DNA from: Escherichia coli
Lineage (GTDB): Bacteria > Pseudomonadota > Gammaproteobacteria > Enterobacterales > Enterobacteriaceae
Strand: one strand, 5' to 3'
Length of the DNA stretch: 64,000 nucleotides
Assembly (NCBI RefSeq): GCF_003334765.1
Contig: NZ_QOWT01000002.1
Under the pieces are notes generated by a model that was not told where the DNA came from, made no database searches, and saw nothing but the letters and a program-made list of their open reading frames with translations. The translations under genes were made by a program, and so were the position numbers. Positions 49,404 to 59,145 of this stretch are shown piece after piece (the stretch's first letter is position 1; each line of letters starts with the position of its first letter).

Positions 49404-49534
49404 CCCGACTCCTTTTTTGTATAGATAAACCATCAGCTGATAGTTTACCTGAAGAATATAGAGAAGTACTTACTTAACATTTTCCCATTTGGTACTATCT
49501 AACCCCTTTTCACTATTAAGAAGTAATGCCTACT

Positions 49535-51568
49535 ATGACTCAAGTCGCGAAGAAAATTCTGGTGACGTGCGCACTGCCGTACGCTAACGGCTCAATCCAC
49601 CTCGGCCATATGCTGGAGCACATCCAGGCTGATGTCTGGGTCCGTTACCAGCGAATGCGCGGCCACGAGGTCAACTTCATCTGCGCCGACGATGCCCACG
49701 GTACACCGATCATGCTGAAAGCTCAGCAGCTTGGTATCACCCCGGAGCAGATGATTGGCGAAATGAGTCAGGAGCATCAGACTGATTTCGCAGGCTTTAA
49801 CATCAGCTATGACAACTATCACTCGACGCACAGCGAAGAGAACCGCCAGTTGTCAGAACTTATCTACTCTCGCCTGAAAGAGAACGGTTTTATTAAAAAC
49901 CGCACCATCTCTCAGCTGTACGATCCGGAAAAAGGCATGTTCCTGCCGGACCGTTTTGTGAAAGGCACCTGCCCGAAATGTAAATCCCCGGATCAATACG
50001 GCGATAACTGCGAAGTCTGCGGCGCGACCTACAGCCCGACTGAATTGATCGAGCCGAAATCGGTGGTTTCTGGCGCTACGCCGGTAATGCGTGATTCTGA
50101 ACACTTCTTCTTTGATCTGCCCTCTTTCAGCGAAATGTTGCAGGCATGGACCCGCAGCGGTGCGTTGCAGGAGCAGGTGGCAAATAAAATGCAGGAGTGG
50201 TTTGAATCCGGCCTGCAACAGTGGGATATCTCCCGCGACGCGCCATACTTTGGTTTTGAAATTCCGAACGCGCCGGGCAAATATTTCTACGTCTGGCTGG
50301 ACGCACCGATTGGCTACATGGGTTCTTTCAAGAATCTGTGCGACAAGCGCGGCGACAGCGTAAGCTTCGATGAATACTGGAAGAAAGACTCCACCGCCGA
50401 GCTGTACCACTTCATCGGTAAAGATATCGTTTACTTCCACAGCCTGTTCTGGCCTGCCATGCTGGAAGGCAGCAACTTCCGCAAGCCGACCAACCTGTTT
50501 GTTCATGGCTATGTGACGGTGAACGGCGCGAAGATGTCCAAGTCTCGCGGCACCTTTATTAAAGCCAGCACCTGGCTGAATCATTTTGACGCTGACAGCC
50601 TGCGTTACTACTACACTGCGAAACTCTCTTCGCGCATTGATGATATCGATCTCAACCTGGAGGATTTCGTTCAGCGCGTGAATGCCGATATCGTTAACAA
50701 AGTGGTTAACCTGGCCTCCCGTAACGCGGGCTTTATCAACAAACGTTTTGACGGCGTGCTGGCAAACGAACTGGCTGACCCGCAGTTGTACAAAACCTTC
50801 ACTGATGCCGCTGAAGTGATTGGTGAAGCGTGGGAAAGCCGTGAATTTGGTAAAGCTGTGCGCGAAATCATGGCGCTGGCTGATCTGGCTAACCGCTATG
50901 TCGATGAACAGGCTCCGTGGGTAGTCGCAAAACAGGAAGGTCGCGATGCTGACCTGCAGGCGATTTGCTCAATGGGCATCAACCTGTTCCGCGTGCTGAT
51001 GACTTACCTGAAGCCGGTACTGCCGAAACTGACCGAGCGTGCAGAAGCCTTCCTCAATACGGAACTGACCTGGGATGGTATCCAGCAACCGCTGCTGGGC
51101 CACAAAGTGAATCCGTTCAAGGCGCTGTATAACCGCATCGATATGAAACAGGTTGAAGCTCTGGTGGAAGCCTCTAAAGAAGAAGTGAAAGCAGCTGCCG
51201 CGCCAGTTACTGGCCCACTGGCAGATGATCCGATTCAGGAAACCATCACCTTTGACGACTTCGCCAAAGTTGACCTGCGCGTAGCGCTGATCGAAAACGC
51301 AGAGTTTGTTGAAGGTTCTGACAAACTGCTGCGCCTGACACTGGATCTCGGCGGTGAAAAACGCAATGTCTTCTCCGGTATTCGTTCTGCCTACCCGGAT
51401 CCGCAGGCACTGATTGGTCGTCACACCATTATGGTGGCTAACCTGGCACCACGTAAAATGCGCTTTGGAATCTCCGAAGGCATGGTGATGGCTGCCGGTC
51501 CAGGCGGGAAAGATATCTTCCTGCTAAGCCCGGATGCTGGTGCTAAACCGGGTCATCAGGTGAAATAA
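49535..51568 (+). CDS. metG: Methionyl-tRNA synthetase
   Basis: 677 aa from [26 protein letters not shown] (HIGH motif) with KMSKS. Confidence 0.95.
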
Positions 51569-51578
51569 TCCCCCTTCA

Positions 51579-51609
51579 AGGCGCTGCATCGACAGCGCCT
51601 TTTCTTTAT
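51579..51609 (+). terminator. Intrinsic terminator of metG
   Basis: aggcgctg-catcga-cagcgcct hairpin followed by TTTTCTTTAT. Confidence 0.7.
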
Positions 51610-51708
51610 AAATTCCTAAAGTTGTTTTCTTGCGATTTTGTCTCTCTCTAACCCGCATAAATACTGGTAGCATCTGCATTCAACTGGATAAAATTACAGG
51701 GATGCAGA

Positions 51709-54700
51709 ATGAGACACTTTATCTATCAGGACGAAAAATCACATAAATTCTGGGCGGTGGAGCAACAGGGAAACGAGTTGCATATCAGTTGGGGAAAAGT
51801 TGGCACCAAAGGGCAAAGTCAGATAAAAAGTTTTTCAGATGCTGCGGCAGCGGAAAAAGCGGAACTTAAGCTGATTGCGGAGAAGGTGAAGAAGGGGTAT
51901 GTGGAGCAAGCGAAGGATAATTCTTTGCAACCTTCCCAAACGGTAACGGGCTCTCTCAAGGTAGCGGACTTATCCACCATTATTCAGGAACAACCCTCTT
52001 TCGTAGCAGAAACCCGTGCGCCTGACAAAAATACAGATGCTGTTTTACCGTGGCTGGCGAAAGATATTGCTGTCGTTTTTCCGCCCGAAGTTGTACACAC
52101 CACGTTAAGTCATCGCCGCTTTCCCGGAGTTCCTGTTCAGCAAGCAGACAAATTGACCCAATTACGTCGCTTAGCCTGTAGTGTGTCGCAACGGGATAAT
52201 AAAACAGCCACATTTGACTTCAGCGCCTGTTCTTTAGAATGGCAAAACACCGTCGCCCAGGCGATCAGTCAGATCGACGGCCTGAAAACAACACAGTTAC
52301 CATCACCAGTAATGGCTGTACTCACGGCACTTGAAATGAAATGCACAAGATATAAAGTGCGTGAGGATGTTATGGATCAGATCGTCCAGGAAGGCGGTCT
52401 GGAATATGCTACTGATGTAATAATACACCTTCAACAGATTGATATTGAATGGGATTATGCGAATAATGTCATTATTATTCTGCCGTCTGGCATTGCACCT
52501 AGCTACTTGGAGCAATATTCCAGATTTGAATTACGCCTACGTAAACATTTATCACTGACGGAAGAGTCTCTCTGGCAAAAATGTGCACAAAAACTTATTG
52601 CCGCAATTCCACATATTCCAGAATGGCGGCAACCATTAATTGCTTTGTTATTACCCGAAAAACCAGAAATTGCACATGAAATTGCCCAGCGTCTACTGGG
52701 GCAAAAAAAATTACCCTCGCTTGAGTGGTTAAAAATAGTGGCGACTGATGAGCACATTCTTGCCTCATTAGAAAAATATCACGAACCATATGCCATTTTT
52801 GATGATTACTATTGTGGTGCGATATGGTCAGCCACCGTATTACAGGAGCAAGGTGTTGCAGCCCTGCCCCGATTTGCTCCCTATGCCGCAAGTGACTACT
52901 GCGCCGATGTGTTGCGTCATATCAATCATCCGTTCGCATTGACACTGCTTATACGTGTAGCCGGGCAAACTAAACGCTGTCACGATCGGATGACGAAAGC
53001 CATTGCTGCGTTCCCACATGCAGCAATGGCGGCACTGACGGAACTTCTTGGGCAAAAAGAAGAGAACAGTTGGCGCATTATGCTAATGACAATGCTTATC
53101 TCACAACCAGCACTGGCAGAACAGGTCATTCCCTGGCTCTCGACACCCGCAGTTGCCGTACTGAAATCATGCCAGCAACAACTGACACAGCCCTCAAACC
53201 ATGCCAGCGCCGATCTACTGCCAGCCGTAGTAGTCTCCCCTCCCTGGCTTTCGAAAAAGAAAAAATCGCCGATTCCGGTGCTGGATTTAGCGCCATTAGG
53301 CATTGAGCCAATCTGTTATCTGACAGAAGAAATCAGTAATCAACTTTTGGCGAAATATATCTGGTATTCAAAACACATCACGGTTAGCCATGAAGAAAGT
53401 ACTACCAACCTGTTGGCAAGGATGGGTTTTCAACGACGGATCGCTGGTACATATATTAAAGCTCCCGAAGCGGTAGTTGAGGCATGGCTAAATGAAGATT
53501 ATTCAACCTTACTAAGTGAATTTAAGGTGTTTCATTCACCTACCGGGCATTATTGGCAGTTGGGGATTTTGACAACATTGCCGCTGGAGAAAGCAGTAAA
53601 AGCATGGAATGCCCTTACCCTATCTCCACATACCGATACCGAATACTCCATGTTACATTTTGGACTCAAAGGGTTACCTGGGTTAGTAAACTCACTTGCA
53701 CGCTATCCACAAGAAGCCTTGCCCATCACGAATTACTTCGCAGCGAGTGAGCTGGCTCCTGCCGTCGCCCGTGCCTTCAACAAACTGAAAACGCTACGCG
53801 AAAACGCCCGTAGCTGGCTGTTGAAATACCCGGAACATGCCCTTACCGGCCTGCTGCCTGCGGCGCTCGGCAAAGCCGGTGAAGCACAGGATAACGCCCG
53901 CGCTGCCTTGCGTATGCTTACCGAAAACGGTCATCAGCCATTACTGCAAGAAATCGCCCGACGTTATAACCAGCCGGAAGTAACCGATGCGGTGAACGCT
54001 CTGCTTGCGCTCGATCCCTTAGATAATCACCCGACAAAAATCCCCACTCTTCCGGCCTTTTATCAGCCATCGCTCTGGACGCGCCCGGTATTAAAAGCAA
54101 ATGCCCAATCACTGCCAGATAGCGCCCTCCTCCACCTCGGTGAAATGCTCCGCTTCCCTCAGGAAGAGGCTCTGTATCCGGGATTATTGCAGGTGAAAGA
54201 CGTCTGTTCCGCCGACTCACTGGCGGGATTTGCCTGGGATCTGTTTACCGCCTGGCAGACCGCTGGCGCGCCGTCGAAAGAGAGTTGGGCGTTCACTGCG
54301 TTAGGCGTTCTCGGTAACGATGACACCGCCCGCAAACTGACGCCATTAATACGCGCCTGGCCTGGTGAATCCCAGCATAAACGCGCCACCGTTGGGTTGG
54401 ATATTCTCGCTGCTATCGGTAGTGATATCGCCCTTATGCAGCTTAACGGCATCGCCCAGAAACTGAAATTCAAAGCATTACAGGAGCGGGCAAAAGAAAA
54501 AATTGCCGACATTGCCGAGAGCCGCGAACTCACGGTGGCGGAGCTTGAAGATCGGTTAGCACCGGATCTCGGTCTGGATGATAACGGTTCGCTGCTGCTG
54601 GATTTTGGCCCACGGCAGTTCACCGTCAGCTTTGATGAAACCTTAAAACCGTTTGTGCGTGATGTTTCCGGCAGCCGCCTGAAAGACCTGCCCAAACCGA

Positions 54701-55503
54701 ACAAAAGCGATGATGAAACGCGGGCGAACGATGCGGTTAACCGCTACAAATTGCTGAAAAAAGATGCGCGTACCATCGCCGCCCAGCAGGTAGCAAGGCT
54801 GGAATCCGCCATGTGCCTGCGCCGCCGCTGGTCGCTGGAAAACTTCCAGCTCTTCCTGGTTGAGCATCCGCTGGTTCGTCACTTAACCCGCCGTCTGATT
54901 TGGGGCGTTTATAGCGCCGAAAACCAGCTACTGGCTTGCTTTCGCGTAGCAGAAGATAACAGCTCCAGCACCGCTGACGATGATCTTTTCACCCTGCCGG
55001 AAGGCGATATCTCTATCGGCACTCCTCACGTTCTGGAAATATCACCAACGGATGCTGCCGCCTTTGGTCAGCTTTTTGCCGACTACGAACTGCTACCACC
55101 GTTCCGCCAGCTCGACCGTAACAGCTACGCCCTGACAGAAGCCGAGCGCAATGCCAGTGAACTGACCCGCTGGGCAGGCAGAAAATGCCCGAGTGGTCGG
55201 GTCATGGGGCTGGCGAATAAAGGCTGGATAAAGGGCGAACCACAGGATGGAGGCTGGATCGGATGGATGATCAAACCTTTGGGTCGCTGGTCGTTAATCA
55301 TGGAAATCGATGAAGGCTTTGCGGTAGGCATGTCGCCAGCCGAACTCAGCGCTGAGCAGCTCTTAAGCAAGCTGTGGCTATGGGAAGGCAAAGCAGAAAG
55401 ATATGGCTGGGGGAGTAATTCAACACAGGAAGCGCAGTTCTCCGTAATCGATGCCATCACCGCCAGCGAGCTAATTAACGATATTGAAGCCCTGTTTGAA
55501 TAA
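51709..55503 (+). CDS. molR: MolR-family WGR-domain / DUF4132 protein, full length
   Basis: Uninterrupted 1264-aa ORF; N-terminal WGR-like segment (KFWAVEQQGNELHISWGKVG); C-terminal region paralogous to YehI. Confidence 0.85.
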   Translation: MRHFIYQDEKSHKFWAVEQQGNELHISWGKVGTKGQSQIKSFSDAAAAEKAELKLIAEKVKKGYVEQAKDNSLQPSQTVTGSLKVADLSTIIQEQPSFVAETRAPDKNTDAVLPWLAKDIAVVFPPEVVHTTLSHRRFPGVPVQQADKLTQLRRLACSVSQRDNKTATFDFSACSLEWQNTVAQAISQIDGLKTTQLPSPVMAVLTALEMKCTRYKVREDVMDQIVQEGGLEYATDVIIHLQQIDIEWDYANNVIIILPSGIAPSYLEQYSRFELRLRKHLSLTEESLWQKCAQKLIAAIPHIPEWRQPLIALLLPEKPEIAHEIAQRLLGQKKLPSLEWLKIVATDEHILASLEKYHEPYAIFDDYYCGAIWSATVLQEQGVAALPRFAPYAASDYCADVLRHINHPFALTLLIRVAGQTKRCHDRMTKAIAAFPHAAMAALTELLGQKEENSWRIMLMTMLISQPALAEQVIPWLSTPAVAVLKSCQQQLTQPSNHASADLLPAVVVSPPWLSKKKKSPIPVLDLAPLGIEPICYLTEEISNQLLAKYIWYSKHITVSHEESTTNLLARMGFQRRIAGTYIKAPEAVVEAWLNEDYSTLLSEFKVFHSPTGHYWQLGILTTLPLEKAVKAWNALTLSPHTDTEYSMLHFGLKGLPGLVNSLARYPQEALPITNYFAASELAPAVARAFNKLKTLRENARSWLLKYPEHALTGLLPAALGKAGEAQDNARAALRMLTENGHQPLLQEIARRYNQPEVTDAVNALLALDPLDNHPTKIPTLPAFYQPSLWTRPVLKANAQSLPDSALLHLGEMLRFPQEEALYPGLLQVKDVCSADSLAGFAWDLFTAWQTAGAPSKESWAFTALGVLGNDDTARKLTPLIRAWPGESQHKRATVGLDILAAIGSDIALMQLNGIAQKLKFKALQERAKEKIADIAESRELTVAELEDRLAPDLGLDDNGSLLLDFGPRQFTVSFDETLKPFVRDVSGSRLKDLPKPNKSDDETRANDAVNRYKLLKKDARTIAAQQVARLESAMCLRRRWSLENFQLFLVEHPLVRHLTRRLIWGVYSAENQLLACFRVAEDNSSSTADDDLFTLPEGDISIGTPHVLEISPTDAAAFGQLFADYELLPPFRQLDRNSYALTEAERNASELTRWAGRKCPSGRVMGLANKGWIKGEPQDGGWIGWMIKPLGRWSLIMEIDEGFAVGMSPAELSAEQLLSKLWLWEGKAERYGWGSNSTQEAQFSVIDAITASELINDIEALFE

Positions 55504-55512
55504 GGAAAGAGC

Positions 55513-58500
55513 ATGGACAAGGAATTACCGTGGCTGGCGGATAACGCCCAACTGGAACTGAAATATAAAAAAGGCAAAACGCCGCTCAGTCATCGTCGCT
55601 GGCCGGGCGAACCAGTGTCCGTTATCACTGGAAGTCTCATCCAGACATTGGGTGATGAATTGCTACAAAAAGCTGAGAAGAAAAAAAACATTGTCTGGCG
55701 TTATGAGAATTTTTCACTGGAGTGGCAGTCCGCCATCACGCAGGCCATCAACTTGATCGGCGAACACAAACCCTCAATCCCGGCCCGGACAATGGCGGCG
55801 CTAGCCTGTATCGCGCAAAATGACAGCCAACAGTTGCTCGACGAAATCGTCCAACAAGAGGGGCTGGAATATGCGACTGAGGTGGTGATTGCACGCCAGT
55901 TTATTGCGCGGTGTTATGAGAGTGATCCTCTGGTAGTGACATTGCAGTATCAGGACGAGGATTATGGCTATGGTTATCGCTCAGAAACCTATAACGAATT
56001 CGATCTCCGACTGCGTAAGCATCTCTCTCTGGCAGAGGAAAGCTGCTGGCAGCGTTGCGCCGACAAACTCATTGCCGCACTACCAGGAATAACCAAAGTT
56101 CGCCGCCCTTTTATTGCGCTGATCCTCCCGGAAAAACCAGAAATAGCCAATGAGTTGGTAGGCCTTGAATGCCCGCGAACTCATTTTCATTCTAAGGAGT
56201 GGTTAAAAGTTGTTGCTAATGACCCCACAGCGGTGAGAAAACTCGAACACTACTGGAGCCAGGATATATTTAGCGATCGAGAAGCCAGCTACATGTCGCA
56301 TGAAAACCACTTCGGCTACGCGGCCTGCGCCGCCCTTTTGCGCGAACAAGGACTGGCAGCCATTCCGCGCCTCGCGATGTATGCCCATAAAGAAGATTGC
56401 GGCAGTCTGCTGGTACAAATTAACCATCCGCAAGTCATCCGCACCTTGCTACTGGTGGCTGATAAAAACAAACCCAGCCTGCAACGTGTAGCTAAATACC
56501 ATAAAAACTTCCCCCATGCGACGCTCGCCGCACTGGCAGAACTGCTGGCGTTAACAGAACCACCAGCCCGCCCTGGTTATCCAATCATCGAAGACAAAAA
56601 GCTGCCTGCACAGCAAAAAGCACGCGATGAATACTGGCGTACGCTGTTACAAACGCTGATGGCATCGCAGCCACAACTGGCAGCAGAAGTGATGCCGTGG
56701 TTAAGTACTCAACCCCAGTCAGTGCTGAAGAGTTATTTATCGGCACCGCCCAAACCGGTTATTGATGGCACCGATAACAGCAATCTGCCAGAAATCCTCG
56801 TTTCACCACCGTGGCGTAGTAAGAAAAAAATGACAGCTCCACGTCTTGATTTGGCACCGCTCGAATTAACTCCGCAAGTTTACTGGCAACCAGGCGAACA
56901 AGAGAGGCTTGCCGCCACTGAGCCTGCCCGTTATTTCAGCACGGAATCTCTTGCGCAACGCATGGAACAAAAAAGTGGACGAGTTGTATTACAGGAACTG
57001 GGTTTTGGGGATGATGTATGGCTGTTTCTGAATTATATACTCCCCGGAAAACTGGATGCTGCACGCAATTCACTCTTTGTTCAGTGGCATTACTACCAGG
57101 GGCGGGTTGAAGAGATCCTGAATGGCTGGAACTCCCCGGAAGCACAATTAGCAGAACAGGCGCTCCGCAGCGGTCACATAGAAGCGTTAATTAACATATG
57201 GGAAAATGACAACTACTCACATTATCGTCCGGAAAAGAGTGTCTGGAACCTGTATTTATTGGCACAGTTGCCGCGTGAGATGGCTTTGACCTTCTGGCTG
57301 CGTATCAATGAGAAAAAGCATCTGTTCGCGGGTGAGGACTATTTTCTCAGTATCCTCGGATTGGATGCGCTACCAGGTCTGCTGTTGGCTTTTTCACATC
57401 GTCCAAAAGAAACATTTCCGTTAATTTTAAATTTTGGCGCAACAGAACTGGCGCTGCCTGTTGCCCACGTCTGGCGACGTTTCGCGGCGCAGCGTGATCT
57501 GGCTCGCCAGTGGATTTTACAATGGCCGGAACATACGGCTAGTGCACTTATCCCTCTTGTCTTTACCAAACCCAGCGATAATAGCGAAGCCGCATTACTT
57601 GCCCTGCGTTTACTGTACGAACAGGGACATGGCGAATTGCTACAAACCGTGGCAAACCGCTGGCAGCGTACAGATGTATGGTCTGCCCTGGAGCAGTTGC
57701 TTAAACAGGATCCAATGGACATTTACCCGGCACGCATTCCAAAAGCCCCTGATTTCTGGCATCCGGCAATGTGGTCCAGGCCTCGACTTATCACTAATAA
57801 TCAGCCTGTTACCGGTGACGCTCTGGAAATTATCGGCGAAATGCTGCGCTTTACCCAGGGGGGACGTTTTTATAGCGGGCTGGAACAACTGAAAACGTTC
57901 TGCCAGCCACAAACGCTGGCAGCTTTTGCCTGGGATCTCTTCACTGCGTGGCAACAAGCTGGTGCCCCCGCAAAAGACAACTGGGCATTTCTGGCGTTAA
58001 GTCTCTTTGGTGACGAAAGCACGGCACGGGATCTGACGACACAGATCCTCGCCTGGCCACAAGAAGGCAAATCTGCCCGTGCTGTCAGCGGCCTGAACAT
58101 CCTTACCCTGATGAATAATGATATGGCGCTGATACAGCTGCATCATATATCGCAACGGGCTAAATCCCGCCCCTTACGTGATAACGCGGCGGAATTTCTT
58201 CAGGTGGTCGCAGAAAATCGCGGGCTAAGCCAGGAAGAGCTAGCGGACAGATTAGTCCCAACCCTGGGCCTTGATGATCCGCAGGCGTTGAGTTTTGATT
58301 TTGGTCCCCGGCAGTTTACCGTTCGCTTCGATGAAAACCTCAACCCGGTTATCTTTGATCAGCAAAACGTTCGCCAGAAAAGCGTTCCCCGTTTGCGCGC
58401 CGATGACGATCAACTGAAAGCGCCCGAGGCACTGACCCGACTAAAAGGGCTAAAAAAAGATGCTACTCAGGTGAGCAAAAACCTGCTCCCGCGTCTTGAA

Positions 58501-59145
58501 GCTGCCCTACGTACCACCCGACGCTGGTCGCTGGCAGATTTTCATTCTCTGTTTGTTAATCATCCCTTTACCCGTCTGGTTACCCAGCGATTAATATGGG
58601 GGGGTTATCCGGCAAATGAACCGCGTCGTTTACTCAACGCCTTTCGTGTGGCCGCAGAGGGGGAGTTCTGCAATGCGCAAGATGAGCCAATTGACCTGCC
58701 TGCGGACGCTCTGATTGGCATTGCCCACCCGTTAGAAATGGCAGTAGAAATGCGCAGTGAATTTGCACAGCTTTTTGCCGATTACGAAATTATGCCGCCT
58801 TTTCGCCAGTTGTCGCGCCGCACGGTGCTGCTCACACCTGACGAGTCAACCAGTAACAGCCTGACTCGCTGGGAAGGTAAATCCGCTACCGTTGGGCAAC
58901 TTATGGGAATGCGATACAAAGGCTGGGAGTCAGGCTATGAGGACACATTTGTCTATGACCTGGGCGAGTACCGGCTGGTCCTTAAGTTTTCACCCGGTTT
59001 TAACCACTACAATGTTGATAGCAAAGCGTTAATGAGCTGCCGTTCTCTTCGAGTGTACCGTGACAATAAATCCGTCACTTTTGCCGAACTTGATGTGTTT
59101 GATTTGAGTGAGGCGTTAAGCGCACCTGACGTCATTTTCCATTAA
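55513..59145 (+). CDS. yehI: DUF4132-family protein YehI (MolR paralog without the WGR N-terminus)
   Basis: 1210 aa; shared blocks with MolR such as GPRQFTV(S/R)FDE and RRWSL..F..F. Confidence 0.88.
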   Translation: MDKELPWLADNAQLELKYKKGKTPLSHRRWPGEPVSVITGSLIQTLGDELLQKAEKKKNIVWRYENFSLEWQSAITQAINLIGEHKPSIPARTMAALACIAQNDSQQLLDEIVQQEGLEYATEVVIARQFIARCYESDPLVVTLQYQDEDYGYGYRSETYNEFDLRLRKHLSLAEESCWQRCADKLIAALPGITKVRRPFIALILPEKPEIANELVGLECPRTHFHSKEWLKVVANDPTAVRKLEHYWSQDIFSDREASYMSHENHFGYAACAALLREQGLAAIPRLAMYAHKEDCGSLLVQINHPQVIRTLLLVADKNKPSLQRVAKYHKNFPHATLAALAELLALTEPPARPGYPIIEDKKLPAQQKARDEYWRTLLQTLMASQPQLAAEVMPWLSTQPQSVLKSYLSAPPKPVIDGTDNSNLPEILVSPPWRSKKKMTAPRLDLAPLELTPQVYWQPGEQERLAATEPARYFSTESLAQRMEQKSGRVVLQELGFGDDVWLFLNYILPGKLDAARNSLFVQWHYYQGRVEEILNGWNSPEAQLAEQALRSGHIEALINIWENDNYSHYRPEKSVWNLYLLAQLPREMALTFWLRINEKKHLFAGEDYFLSILGLDALPGLLLAFSHRPKETFPLILNFGATELALPVAHVWRRFAAQRDLARQWILQWPEHTASALIPLVFTKPSDNSEAALLALRLLYEQGHGELLQTVANRWQRTDVWSALEQLLKQDPMDIYPARIPKAPDFWHPAMWSRPRLITNNQPVTGDALEIIGEMLRFTQGGRFYSGLEQLKTFCQPQTLAAFAWDLFTAWQQAGAPAKDNWAFLALSLFGDESTARDLTTQILAWPQEGKSARAVSGLNILTLMNNDMALIQLHHISQRAKSRPLRDNAAEFLQVVAENRGLSQEELADRLVPTLGLDDPQALSFDFGPRQFTVRFDENLNPVIFDQQNVRQKSVPRLRADDDQLKAPEALTRLKGLKKDATQVSKNLLPRLEAALRTTRRWSLADFHSLFVNHPFTRLVTQRLIWGGYPANEPRRLLNAFRVAAEGEFCNAQDEPIDLPADALIGIAHPLEMAVEMRSEFAQLFADYEIMPPFRQLSRRTVLLTPDESTSNSLTRWEGKSATVGQLMGMRYKGWESGYEDTFVYDLGEYRLVLKFSPGFNHYNVDSKALMSCRSLRVYRDNKSVTFAELDVFDLSEALSAPDVIFH

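What the first reader, a model, noticed from the sequence alone, without database searches (positions are those of the whole stretch)
51709..59145. Intact molR next to its paralog yehI: tandem giant DUF4132 proteins, one with a WGR domain
Two consecutive ORFs of 1264 and 1210 aa share extended blocks of similarity, so they are tandem paralogs. Only the first carries an N-terminal WGR-like module, a domain otherwise known from PARP-type nucleic-acid-sensing proteins. As I recall, molR is a fragmented pseudogene in K-12, whereas here it is a single uninterrupted frame, so this window offers a functional copy of a gene pair with essentially no assigned function. The historical 'molybdate regulator' label has little support.
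Basis: partly seen in the sequence, partly recalled or inferred. Interest (0 to 1): 0.6.

Follow-up and report, generated by a model that had tools for sequence, protein, structure and literature searches.

The report
SOS-linked giant sensor proteins, MoxR machine
The two giant E. coli genes are real tandem paralogs and are intact here, as they are in most E. coli. They look like the fast-evolving, DNA-binding "sensor" subunits of a widely conserved five-protein ATPase machine of unknown function that is tied to DNA damage, and lab strain K-12 carries that machine in broken form.

Summary
molR (51709-55503, 1264 aa) and yehI (55513-59145, 1210 aa) are uninterrupted and 37% identical over 1184 aa. 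Only MolR has an N-terminal WGR domain, and both carry DUF4132. K-12 molR has a TGA at codon 275 and a +1 G near codon 949.

An intact molR is the norm in E. coli, so this copy is not a rarity.
- molR is a listed LexA (SOS) regulon gene, and a LexA-like box lies 10 nt upstream of its ATG.
- The pair is a derived state. About 30% of E. coli genomes, and Klebsiella oxytoca, have three giants. This molR joins the promoter and first ~100 nt of copy A to the body of copy B.
- Across at least seven bacterial lineages, 1 to ≥8 giants sit beside YehL (MoxR AAA+), YehM (DUF5682), YehP (vWA) and YehQ (double SWIM). I find that YehM has a TraB/ChaN/TIKI-like fold.
- The N-terminal 700 aa of the giants are mosaic and hypervariable, while the C-terminal 560 aa are conserved.

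Best reading: the giants are interchangeable nucleic-acid-sensing adaptors of a damage-responsive MoxR-vWA machine. No biochemical function has been shown.

The parts
51684..51699 (+). LexA-like SOS box CTGGATAAAATTACAG (one mismatch to CTGT-N8-ACAG, all-A/T spacer), 10 nt upstream of the molR ATG.
   Evidence: Not significant as a pattern match alone (21 one-mismatch hits in the window against 17 expected). molR is listed among E. coli genes with a known SOS box (PMC6590174). The box and the whole intergenic region are identical upstream of copy A in a three-copy strain. A similar box, CTGGATGTATGCACAG, sits at the same position in Intestinirhabdus.
51569..51708 (+). metG-molR intergenic region. 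It holds the metG terminator hairpin (51578-51601) and the molR promoter region.
   Evidence: Terminator-like site. The molR promoter in this intergenic region was mapped by 5'-RACE, is activated by BglJ-RcsB and is not H-NS repressed in K-12 (PMC3950696).
51709..55503 (+). molR, intact, 1264 aa: a WGR + helical-repeat + DUF4132 giant (the 'B' paralog body with an 'A' paralog 5' end).
51724..51915 (+). WGR domain (aa 6-69), the short bacterial type. The A/B recombination junction lies inside this coding stretch, at roughly 51809-51915.
   Evidence: Pfam 5e-18. Best solved relative is 2RA8 (E 3e-19); the PARP3 WGR scores only E 0.049. The window is identical to copy A of strain GF130 through about ORF nt 100 and follows copy B from about nt 210.
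52036..53808 (+). Variable N-terminal body (aa ~110-700). It exists as deeply divergent mosaic cassettes among E. coli alleles and is the least conserved part across the family. K-12 has its nonsense mutation here (window 52532).
   Evidence: NG86 dN is 0.27-0.80 with saturated dS in alleles AR_0086 and E189, and allele O18 differs only in aa 501-700. Column conservation is 0.27-0.36, against 0.53-0.73 in the C-terminal part.
53809..55500 (+). Conserved C-terminal module (aa 701-1264): HEAT-like helical repeats, then the DUF4132 alpha/beta core (aa 988-1173, nt 54670-55227), then a small alpha/beta end domain. K-12 has its +1 G frameshift here (~54553).
55513..59145 (+). yehI, intact, 1210 aa: a paralogous giant without WGR. 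DUF4132 lies at aa ~954-1138 (nt ~58372-58926).
   Evidence: Orthologous to the third giant of K. oxytoca (60% identity).
59206..59523 (+). yehK, 105 aa. A lineage-specific small ORF, probably not part of the conserved system.
   Evidence: No homolog in any of 68 related loci. Frameshifted in strain GF130.
59830..60918 (+). yehL, a MoxR-family AAA+ ATPase (362 aa) with Walker A GEPGTAKS.
   Evidence: Present next to the giants in 51 of 68 loci. YehL is the type member of a MoxR subfamily (PMC3893208).
60929..63208 (+). yehM, DUF5682 (759 aa): an N-terminal TraB/ChaN/TIKI/EreA-like domain with two invariant GxxH motifs (G8-H11, G199-H202) and E35, followed by C-terminal helical repeats.
63201..64000 (+). 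yehP 5' part (vWA protein), which runs off the window. yehQ (double SWIM) lies beyond the window.
   Evidence: Gene order taken from K-12 and GF130. YehP has MIDAS DQSGS at 222-226, and YehQ has two CxCx5CxH SWIM motifs.

Best explanation
MolR and YehI are the variable, exchangeable sensor/adaptor subunits of a conserved five-part machine. The other four parts are YehL (MoxR AAA+ ATPase), YehP (vWA/MIDAS adaptor), YehM (TraB/ChaN/TIKI-like putative hydrolase plus helical repeats) and YehQ (double SWIM zinc finger).

Each giant has three parts:
- A short WGR nucleic-acid-binding head, which YehI has lost.
- A fast-evolving ~600-aa helical body, which I infer recognises a ligand or target.
- A conserved ~560-aa HEAT + DUF4132 tail, which I infer docks on the shared YehLMPQ core.

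In E. coli the giants are transcribed from a LexA-controlled promoter, so they accumulate after DNA damage. I infer that they then bind damaged or foreign nucleic acid through WGR. I further infer that they recruit or are remodelled by the YehL6-YehP motor, as in other MoxR-vWA pairs, which would gate the YehM hydrolase or YehQ.

Shown here: domain content, paralogy, synteny, variability pattern and folds. Taken from the literature: LexA, BglJ-RcsB and H-NS control in E. coli, and DdrO/IrrE control of DUF4132 and WGR proteins in Deinococcus. Inferred: all protein-protein contacts, the ligand and the output.
For: 1. Conserved cassette. In 68 loci from Enterobacterales, Burkholderiales, Xanthomonadales, Myxococcota, Thermoanaerobaculia, Actinomycetota and Alphaproteobacteria, YehL and YehM homologs lie beside the giants in 51 loci, and YehP and YehQ in 47. 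Most of the remaining loci are truncated contigs or long arrays of giants. Gene order is permuted in some lineages but the gene content stays the same.
2. Giant copy number varies from 1 to >=8 per locus (Massilia) around a single LMPQ set.
3. Conservation is split. The tail scores 0.53-0.73 in column conservation against 0.27-0.36 for the body. E. coli alleles have dN <= 0.03 in aa 701-1264, against 0.27-0.8 in mosaic blocks of aa 1-700.
4. WGR is the usual head: 111 of the 150 best family representatives and 73 of 94 giants in the loci carry it.
5. One homolog is fused to a histidine kinase next to a MoxR gene, which suggests a signalling role.
6. The motor parts look functional: YehL has a Walker A motif, YehP a MIDAS motif and YehQ two SWIM motifs.
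7. YehM has a TraB/ChaN/TIKI-like fold with invariant GxxH x2 and Glu.
8. There is a damage link in two unrelated regulons. molR is in the LexA regulon, with a box at 51684-51699. D. radiodurans DRA0166 (DUF4132) and DR2173 (WGR) are DdrO targets induced by mitomycin C in an IrrE-dependent way. A D. deserti five-gene SWIM + MoxR operon is radiation-induced.
Against: - No experiment links any Yeh protein to a phenotype.
- The giants contain no recognisable enzyme fold, and the DUF4132 core has no solved relative.
- In E. coli, molR-yehI and yehLMPQ look like separate transcription units. A hairpin + T-run that I read as a terminator and an sRNA gene lie between them. yehL and yehM are H-NS silenced, so co-expression is not guaranteed.
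- No perfect LexA box of the appropriate type was found upstream of homologous cassettes in other taxa, so SOS control may be specific to Escherichia and close relatives.
- The E. coli box is not statistically distinguishable from chance by pattern alone.
- The 68 loci were chosen by similarity to MolR and were annotated with my own crude ORF caller.
- I did not inspect the Deinococcus proteins myself.
Confidence: 0.5

Rival explanations
1. The cassette is an anti-phage or anti-mobile-element immune system. The diversified giants would be pathogen sensors (WGR for invader nucleic acid, the variable body for phage proteins). The MoxR-vWA motor would activate a YehM protease-like effector, giving abortive infection or growth arrest.
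For: - Conflict-like signatures: tandem paralog expansion from 1 to >=8 and deeply divergent mosaic alleles within one species.
- The giants are 56-61% identical between E. coli and K. oxytoca while the adjacent MetG is 94% identical.
- Decay and insertion are recurrent: K-12 molR and yehQ, both A and B in O157:H7, IS1 in strain 14EC001 and TnMB1860 in ST131.
- yehLM is H-NS silenced.
- A type I toxin-antitoxin locus is embedded in the same region.
- Related TIKI/EreA-fold proteins include toxins such as RRSP and HopBA1.
Against: - None of the eight proteins scanned (all components, including the extra paralog A) hits PADLOC.
- There is no phage-encoded homolog.
- The locus is a fixed chromosomal position next to metG, present in >98% of E. 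coli and syntenic with Klebsiella. Typical defence islands are not like this.
- Pairwise dN/dS is 0.2-0.46 and never exceeds 1.
- The family is absent from the Kaur et al. 2020 survey of MoxR-vWA conflict systems.
Confidence: 0.25
2. It is a MoxR-vWA metal-cofactor insertion or complex-maturation chaperone, like NorQD, CbbQO, CoxDEF and Mg-chelatase, with the giants as scaffolds. The old molybdate phenotype of molR would then be a distant reflection of this role.
For: - The characterised MoxR-vWA pairs I know of do this kind of work (PMC3893208; titles and abstracts listed).
- YehP weakly resembles the cobaltochelatase vWA (E 7.5e-4) and YehL resembles GvpN.
Against: - I did not annotate the other flanking genes, so whether a candidate client enzyme is conserved next to the cassette is untested (one search scanned only for Yeh homologs).
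- WGR heads, damage-regulon control and multi-copy hypervariable giants are not expected for a dedicated maturation factor.
- Molybdenum genes were not co-regulated with the Deinococcus homologs.
- The molR label derives from K-12, where the gene is disrupted.
Confidence: 0.15
3. MolR is what the databases call it, a 'MolR family transcriptional regulator' that binds DNA through WGR and controls other genes. YehI would be a degenerate duplicate.
For: WGR is regarded as a DNA-binding domain of 'MolR-like TFs' (PMC7824862). Source databases use that name.
Against: - Pfam reports only WGR and DUF4132 in MolR, so there is no HTH or other known transcription-factor module.
- The protein is a 1264-aa helical scaffold that is constantly linked to an ATPase machine.
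- YehI is intact and present in 5331 of 5426 genomes, with dN/dS 0.26 in one pairwise comparison, so it is not decaying.
Confidence: 0.07

Closest known systems
MoxR AAA+ / vWA remodelling pairs (RavA-ViaA, NorQ-NorD, CbbQ-CbbO, Mg-chelatase BchI-BchD); YehL is the name-giving member of one MoxR subfamily
   Same: An AAA+ MoxR ATPase with a Walker A motif sits next to a vWA protein with an intact MIDAS motif, in a conserved operon.
   Different: No client enzyme is known. The cassette adds three partner types not described for the characterised pairs: WGR-DUF4132 giants in variable copy number, a DUF5682 TraB/TIKI-like protein and a double-SWIM protein.
PARP1/2/3 DNA-break sensing through the WGR domain
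   Same: MolR has a Pfam WGR domain at its N-terminus (5e-18), and its gene is DNA-damage inducible according to the literature.
   Different: The domain is the short ~65-aa bacterial WGR, closest to PDB 2RA8 (E 3e-19), with PARP3 at only E 0.049. The motif reads W-G-K here. There is no PARP catalytic, helical or zinc-finger domain. Nucleic-acid binding is untested.
TIKI / TraB / PrgY / ChaN / erythromycin-esterase superfamily (for the partner YehM)
   Different: Sequence searches do not connect them. YehM carries a ~500-aa helical-repeat extension. No activity is known.
vWA-MoxR 'ternary' conflict systems of multicellular bacteria (Kaur et al. 2020, PMC7159879)
   Same: A MoxR-vWA core is combined with large, diversifying partner proteins.
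   Different: That paper does not mention SWIM, WGR, DUF4132, YehL or YehP. PADLOC, the defence-system model library I scanned, gave no hit for any component. I did not test for that paper's effector domains specifically.

Membership tests
DUF4132 family (Pfam PF13569) | Match to the DUF4132 profile | tested here: met
   MolR 988-1173 at 1e-49 and YehI at 6e-46. 72 of 72 aligned homologs match.
WGR domain proteins (Pfam PF05406) | Match to the WGR profile | tested here: met
   MolR 6-69 at 5e-18. YehI has no WGR. The extra paralog A in three-copy strains carries an N-terminal sequence closely similar to MolR's WGR, and RefSeq products at this locus are named 'WGR domain-containing'.
PARP-type ADP-ribosyltransferases | PARP catalytic domain with an H-Y-E triad downstream of WGR | tested here: not met
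MoxR-vWA system, YehL subfamily | MoxR AAA+ gene adjacent to a vWA gene and conserved with the locus | tested here: met
   yehL and yehP lie downstream in the window and in K-12. YehL is beside the giants in 51 of 68 loci and YehP in 47 of 68. Walker A and MIDAS motifs are intact.
E. coli LexA (SOS) regulon | LexA box (CTGT-N8-ACAG type) in the promoter region | tested here: inconclusive
   CTGGATAAAATTACAG at 51684-51699 has one mismatch. The pattern count is not above chance (21 against 17 expected). The literature lists molR under 'known SOS box'.
E. coli LexA (SOS) regulon | LexA-dependent induction after DNA damage | not testable with these tools
   Rests on Fernandez de Henestrosa 2000 and Courcelle 2001, as cited in PMC6590174.
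Known or candidate anti-phage defence systems (PADLOC-DB 2.0) | Any component matches a defence-system protein model | tested here: not met
   No hit for MolR, YehI, YehK, YehL, YehM, YehP, YehQ or paralog A.
Transcription factors ('MolR family transcriptional regulator') | A recognised DNA-binding transcription-factor domain (HTH or similar) and a defined regulon | tested here: not met
   No HTH or other transcription-factor domain at significant E-value; only WGR. The regulon is not testable here.
TIKI/TraB/ChaN/EreA superfamily (partner YehM) | Shared alpha/beta fold with paired GxxH motifs and a conserved Glu | tested here: met

The most novel reading that the evidence does not exclude
The molR-yehI-yehLMPQ cassette is a previously unrecognised, phylum-spanning class of damage or invader surveillance machine. 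Swappable WGR-headed giant sensors would detect aberrant nucleic acid. They would use a MoxR-vWA motor to switch on a TIKI/TraB-like protease (YehM) together with a SWIM protein. On this reading it would be a bacterial counterpart of WGR-based break sensing, wired to a proteolytic output instead of ADP-ribosylation. Its SOS control in E. coli and DdrO control in Deinococcus would be convergent.
Probability: 0.25. Interest if true: 0.8.

Novelty: new variant of a known kind. Interest (0 to 1): 0.5.

Why it matters
molR has been on the list of E. coli SOS genes for 25 years with no function. It belongs to a cassette found from enterobacteria to actinomycetes and myxobacteria, in a family with 8,966 clusters at 50% identity.

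This analysis offers a concrete reason why K-12 genetics has been silent. K-12 carries lesions in two components, molR (nonsense plus frameshift) and yehQ (internal stop), and it descends from a lineage that had already deleted one of three giants.

It also gives the system an anatomy that can be tested directly in natural isolates:
- variable sensor head and body;
- conserved docking tail;
- MoxR-vWA motor;
- a putative TraB/TIKI-like hydrolase.

If the damage link is real, this is an unexplored branch of the bacterial DNA-damage response, or a new immune system.

Tried and rejected
- **LexA-type boxes in other taxa.** I looked upstream of the 68 related cassettes for perfect boxes of the gamma/beta-proteobacterial, actinobacterial/Gram-positive, alphaproteobacterial and Xanthomonas types. 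There was none in a meaningful position. Among close relatives only Intestinirhabdus keeps a similar box. SOS control therefore cannot be claimed as a conserved trait.
- **Defence and phage libraries.** PADLOC gave no hit for any of the eight proteins. tblastn of the DUF4132 region against 50,697 phage records found nothing.
- **NCBIfam.** Only WGR-level and generic AAA/vWA similarities appeared.
- **Positive selection.** Sliding NG86 dN/dS between alleles never exceeded about 0.46 except for one YehI block at 0.92. The diversity is old and mosaic rather than demonstrably adaptive.
- **N-terminal extensions of unusually long homologs.** These are mostly Ala/Pro-rich linkers. One carries a histidine-kinase fusion and one a second DUF4132 module.
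- **Literature.** Full-text searches for DUF4132, DUF5682, yehLMPQ and WGR+MoxR found no functional study. Kaur et al. 2020 does not cover this system.
- **Not done.** I could not fetch the Deinococcus loci to verify their homology myself.
Full report
**Observation**

The window is E. coli, close to K-12: there are 9 nucleotide differences across molR. ORFs 51709-55503 (1264 aa) and 55513-59145 (1210 aa) are uninterrupted and lie 9 nt apart on the + strand. BLASTP gives 37% identity over 1184 residues, E = 0. YehI begins where MolR residue ~110 aligns. Pfam finds WGR (aa 6-69, 5e-18) and DUF4132 (aa 988-1173, 1e-49) in MolR, and only DUF4132 in YehI.

In a K-12 (BW25113) derivative, molR has TTA->TGA at codon 275 and a +1 G after nt 2845. 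RefSeq marks that gene 'frameshifted; internal stop', and it also marks K-12 yehQ 'internal stop'.

**How special is an intact copy?**

It is not special. The identical protein belongs to a 90%-identity cluster with 7,215 members, and the 98% cluster has 21,639. molR DNA is found in 5420 of 5426 complete E. coli genomes and yehI in 5331. K-12 is the exception.

- molR is listed among E. coli LexA-regulated genes with a known SOS box (review PMC6590174, citing Fernandez de Henestrosa 2000 and Courcelle 2001).
- The sequence CTGGATAAAATTACAG (one mismatch, all-A/T spacer) lies at 51684-51699, 10 nt before the ATG. As a pattern match alone it is not above chance (21 hits against 17 expected), so this point rests on the literature.
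- The molR promoter was mapped and shown to be activated by BglJ-RcsB and not repressed by H-NS (PMC3950696).
- yehL and yehM are up-regulated in hns/stpA mutants (PMC3686432).
- A hairpin + T-run that I read as a terminator and an sRNA gene separate yehK from yehL. In E. coli the giants and yehLMPQ are therefore probably separate transcription units.

Many E. coli carry three tandem giants between metG and yehK. In strain GF130 these are:
- A: N-terminal WGR-like head + DUF4132, 1267 aa, 47% identical to this MolR.
- B: WGR + DUF4132, 1264 aa, 92% identical, the ortholog of this MolR.
- YehI: 93% identical.

The unique part of copy A is present in 1644 of 5426 genomes. K. oxytoca has the same metG-A-B-YehI-yehL layout, with one-to-one orthologs at 56%, 61% and 60% identity, while MetG is 94% identical. 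The three paralogs therefore predate the Escherichia/Klebsiella split.

The window's upstream region and first ~100 nt of molR are identical to GF130 copy A, and from about nt 210 on it follows copy B. The simplest reading is that a ~3.8-kb deletion, by recombination between the near-identical WGR-coding 5' ends, removed A and placed B under A's promoter and SOS box.

**Population diversity**

42% of genomes are only 90-95% identical to this molR, and 1,409 of the 5,420 genomes with a match are covered over less than 80% of its length. For metG, 91% of genomes fall in the 95-99% band.

Codon-level comparison shows that the alleles are mosaics:

| Region or gene | dN | dN/dS |
|---|---|---|
| MolR aa 701-1264 | <= 0.03 | 0.03-0.25 per 100-aa block |
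| MolR, divergent blocks in aa 1-700 (AR_0086, E189; aa 501-700 in O18) | 0.27-0.8 (dS saturated) | 0.14-0.46 where dS is calculable |
| metG | 0.002 | 0.01 |
| yehL | 0.006 | 0.04 |
| yehM | 0.020 | 0.11 |
| yehI | 0.033 | 0.26 |

This is ancient, recombining allelic diversity. It is not demonstrated positive selection. Decay recurs as well: both A and B are pseudogenes in an O157:H7 strain, IS1 interrupts molR in strain 14EC001, and TnMB1860 sits in this region in an ST131 sublineage.

**The system**

A profile search of 1.84 billion representatives finds 8,966 clusters (2,585 at E < 1e-30). Of the best 150, 111 carry an N-terminal WGR.

In 68 loci from representative genomes I called ORFs and searched them with E. 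coli YehK, YehL, YehM, YehP and YehQ. YehL and YehM homologs flank the giants in 51 loci, and YehP and YehQ in 47. These loci span Enterobacterales, Burkholderiales, Xanthomonadales, Myxococcota, Thermoanaerobaculia, Actinomycetota and Alphaproteobacteria. Most loci without these neighbours are truncated contigs or long giant arrays.

Giant copy number ranges from 1 to >=8 (Massilia). Gene order is permuted in Burkholderia and Methylobacterium but the content is kept. YehK has no homolog anywhere. Paralogs within a locus share more identity in the tail (median 56%) than in the body (42%). One homolog is fused to a histidine kinase and sits next to a response regulator and a MoxR gene.

**Folds**

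- The AF2 model of MolR 690-1264 is confident (pLDDT 93.1). It shows helical repeats, then an alpha/beta DUF4132 core, then a small alpha/beta end domain.
- For YehM I predicted a TraB/TIKI-like domain from its invariant N-terminal motifs (G8-x-x-H11, E35, G199-x-x-H202).
- YehP has a MIDAS motif, YehL a MoxR-type Walker A motif and YehQ two SWIM motifs.

**Damage link beyond E. coli**

In D. radiodurans the DUF4132 protein DRA0166 and the WGR protein DR2173 are DdrO targets, and mitomycin C induces them in an IrrE-dependent way (PMC8533742). In D. deserti a five-gene operon starting with a SWIM protein and containing a MoxR ATPase is radiation-induced (PMC4007540). I could not fetch these loci, so their homology is taken from the papers.

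No perfect LexA boxes were found upstream of the other 68 cassettes.

**Interpretation**

The best-supported model has three elements:
- The giants are exchangeable nucleic-acid-sensing adaptors: a WGR head, a variable body and a conserved docking tail.
- They feed a single MoxR-vWA motor whose partners are a putative TraB/TIKI-like hydrolase and a SWIM protein.
- At least in E. coli and Deinococcus the giants are produced after DNA damage.

Whether the biological role is damage processing or defence against mobile elements is open. The conflict-like diversity argues for defence. The fixed, near-universal chromosomal position and the absence from PADLOC and from phages argue against it. A cofactor-insertion chaperone role and a plain transcription-factor role are less likely.

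**Verdict**

The system behind it is uncharacterised, widespread and now directly testable. K-12 is a natural double mutant (molR and yehQ), which explains the lack of phenotypes. I score interest at 0.5 and class it as a new variant of a known kind (a MoxR-vWA machine).

Noticed in passing
window 59643-59718 (+): A full-length match to Rfam RF02083, the OrzO-P antitoxin sRNA (101 bits, gathering score 60, E 1.7e-16), lies in the 306-nt yehK-yehL gap. It is preceded by TTGCAA-17-TATAAT (59601-59629) and followed by a hairpin + T-run. No ZorO-like toxin ORF is present nearby. Fozo et al. 2010 state that the zor/orz locus is absent from MG1655, so K-12-like strains seem to keep an orphan antitoxin sRNA.
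   Followed up: partly
L001 24836-26836 (K-12 derivative, beyond the window end): RefSeq marks K-12 yehQ (SWIM protein) as a pseudogene with an internal stop, while strain GF130 has an intact 667-aa yehQ. K-12 therefore carries lesions in two components of the same cassette.
   Followed up: partly
L007 22346-26149 (E. coli GF130) and 1644 other genomes: A third giant paralog (copy A) sits between metG and the molR ortholog. Its variable region is only 80-90% identical at the nucleotide level in 955 genomes, which is very deep allelic divergence for one species.
   Followed up: yes
L016, L031, L032, L042, L055 (Massilia spp.): Arrays of five to eight or more tandem WGR-DUF4132 giants lie in a row. 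Some are fragmented, and the arrays extend beyond the 10-kb flanks.
   Followed up: partly
L009 6883-12213 (metagenome contig; protein P0237): A 1776-aa fusion of a histidine kinase (HisKA/HATPase_c) with WGR and DUF4132. It is preceded by a response regulator and followed by a MoxR-like ATPase.
   Followed up: no
L025 4059-7898 (Intestinirhabdus alba): A single giant next to metG is the ortholog of YehI (54-62% identity) but carries a WGR head. Either YehI lost WGR in Escherichia and Klebsiella, or another deletion-fusion took place here.
   Followed up: partly
window 49526-51568 (metG): The megablast survey found metG matches on 219 plasmid records of complete E. coli assemblies, which is unexpected for an essential chromosomal gene.
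   Followed up: no
window 59206-59523 (yehK): yehK has no detectable homolog in any related cassette outside Escherichia, is frameshifted in GF130, and lies in an AT-rich stretch (GC ~0.43-0.48).
   Followed up: partly
window 51500-53500 versus 53500-55500: GC content rises within molR from ~0.45 in the 5' half to ~0.55 in the 3' half. This parallels the split between the variable and conserved parts of the protein.
   Followed up: no
protein P0234 (1673 aa, representative library): The first ~620 residues already contain a DUF4132-tail-like sequence, and the best match to MolR lies at 1093-1585. This single polypeptide therefore seems to carry two DUF4132 modules.
   Followed up: no
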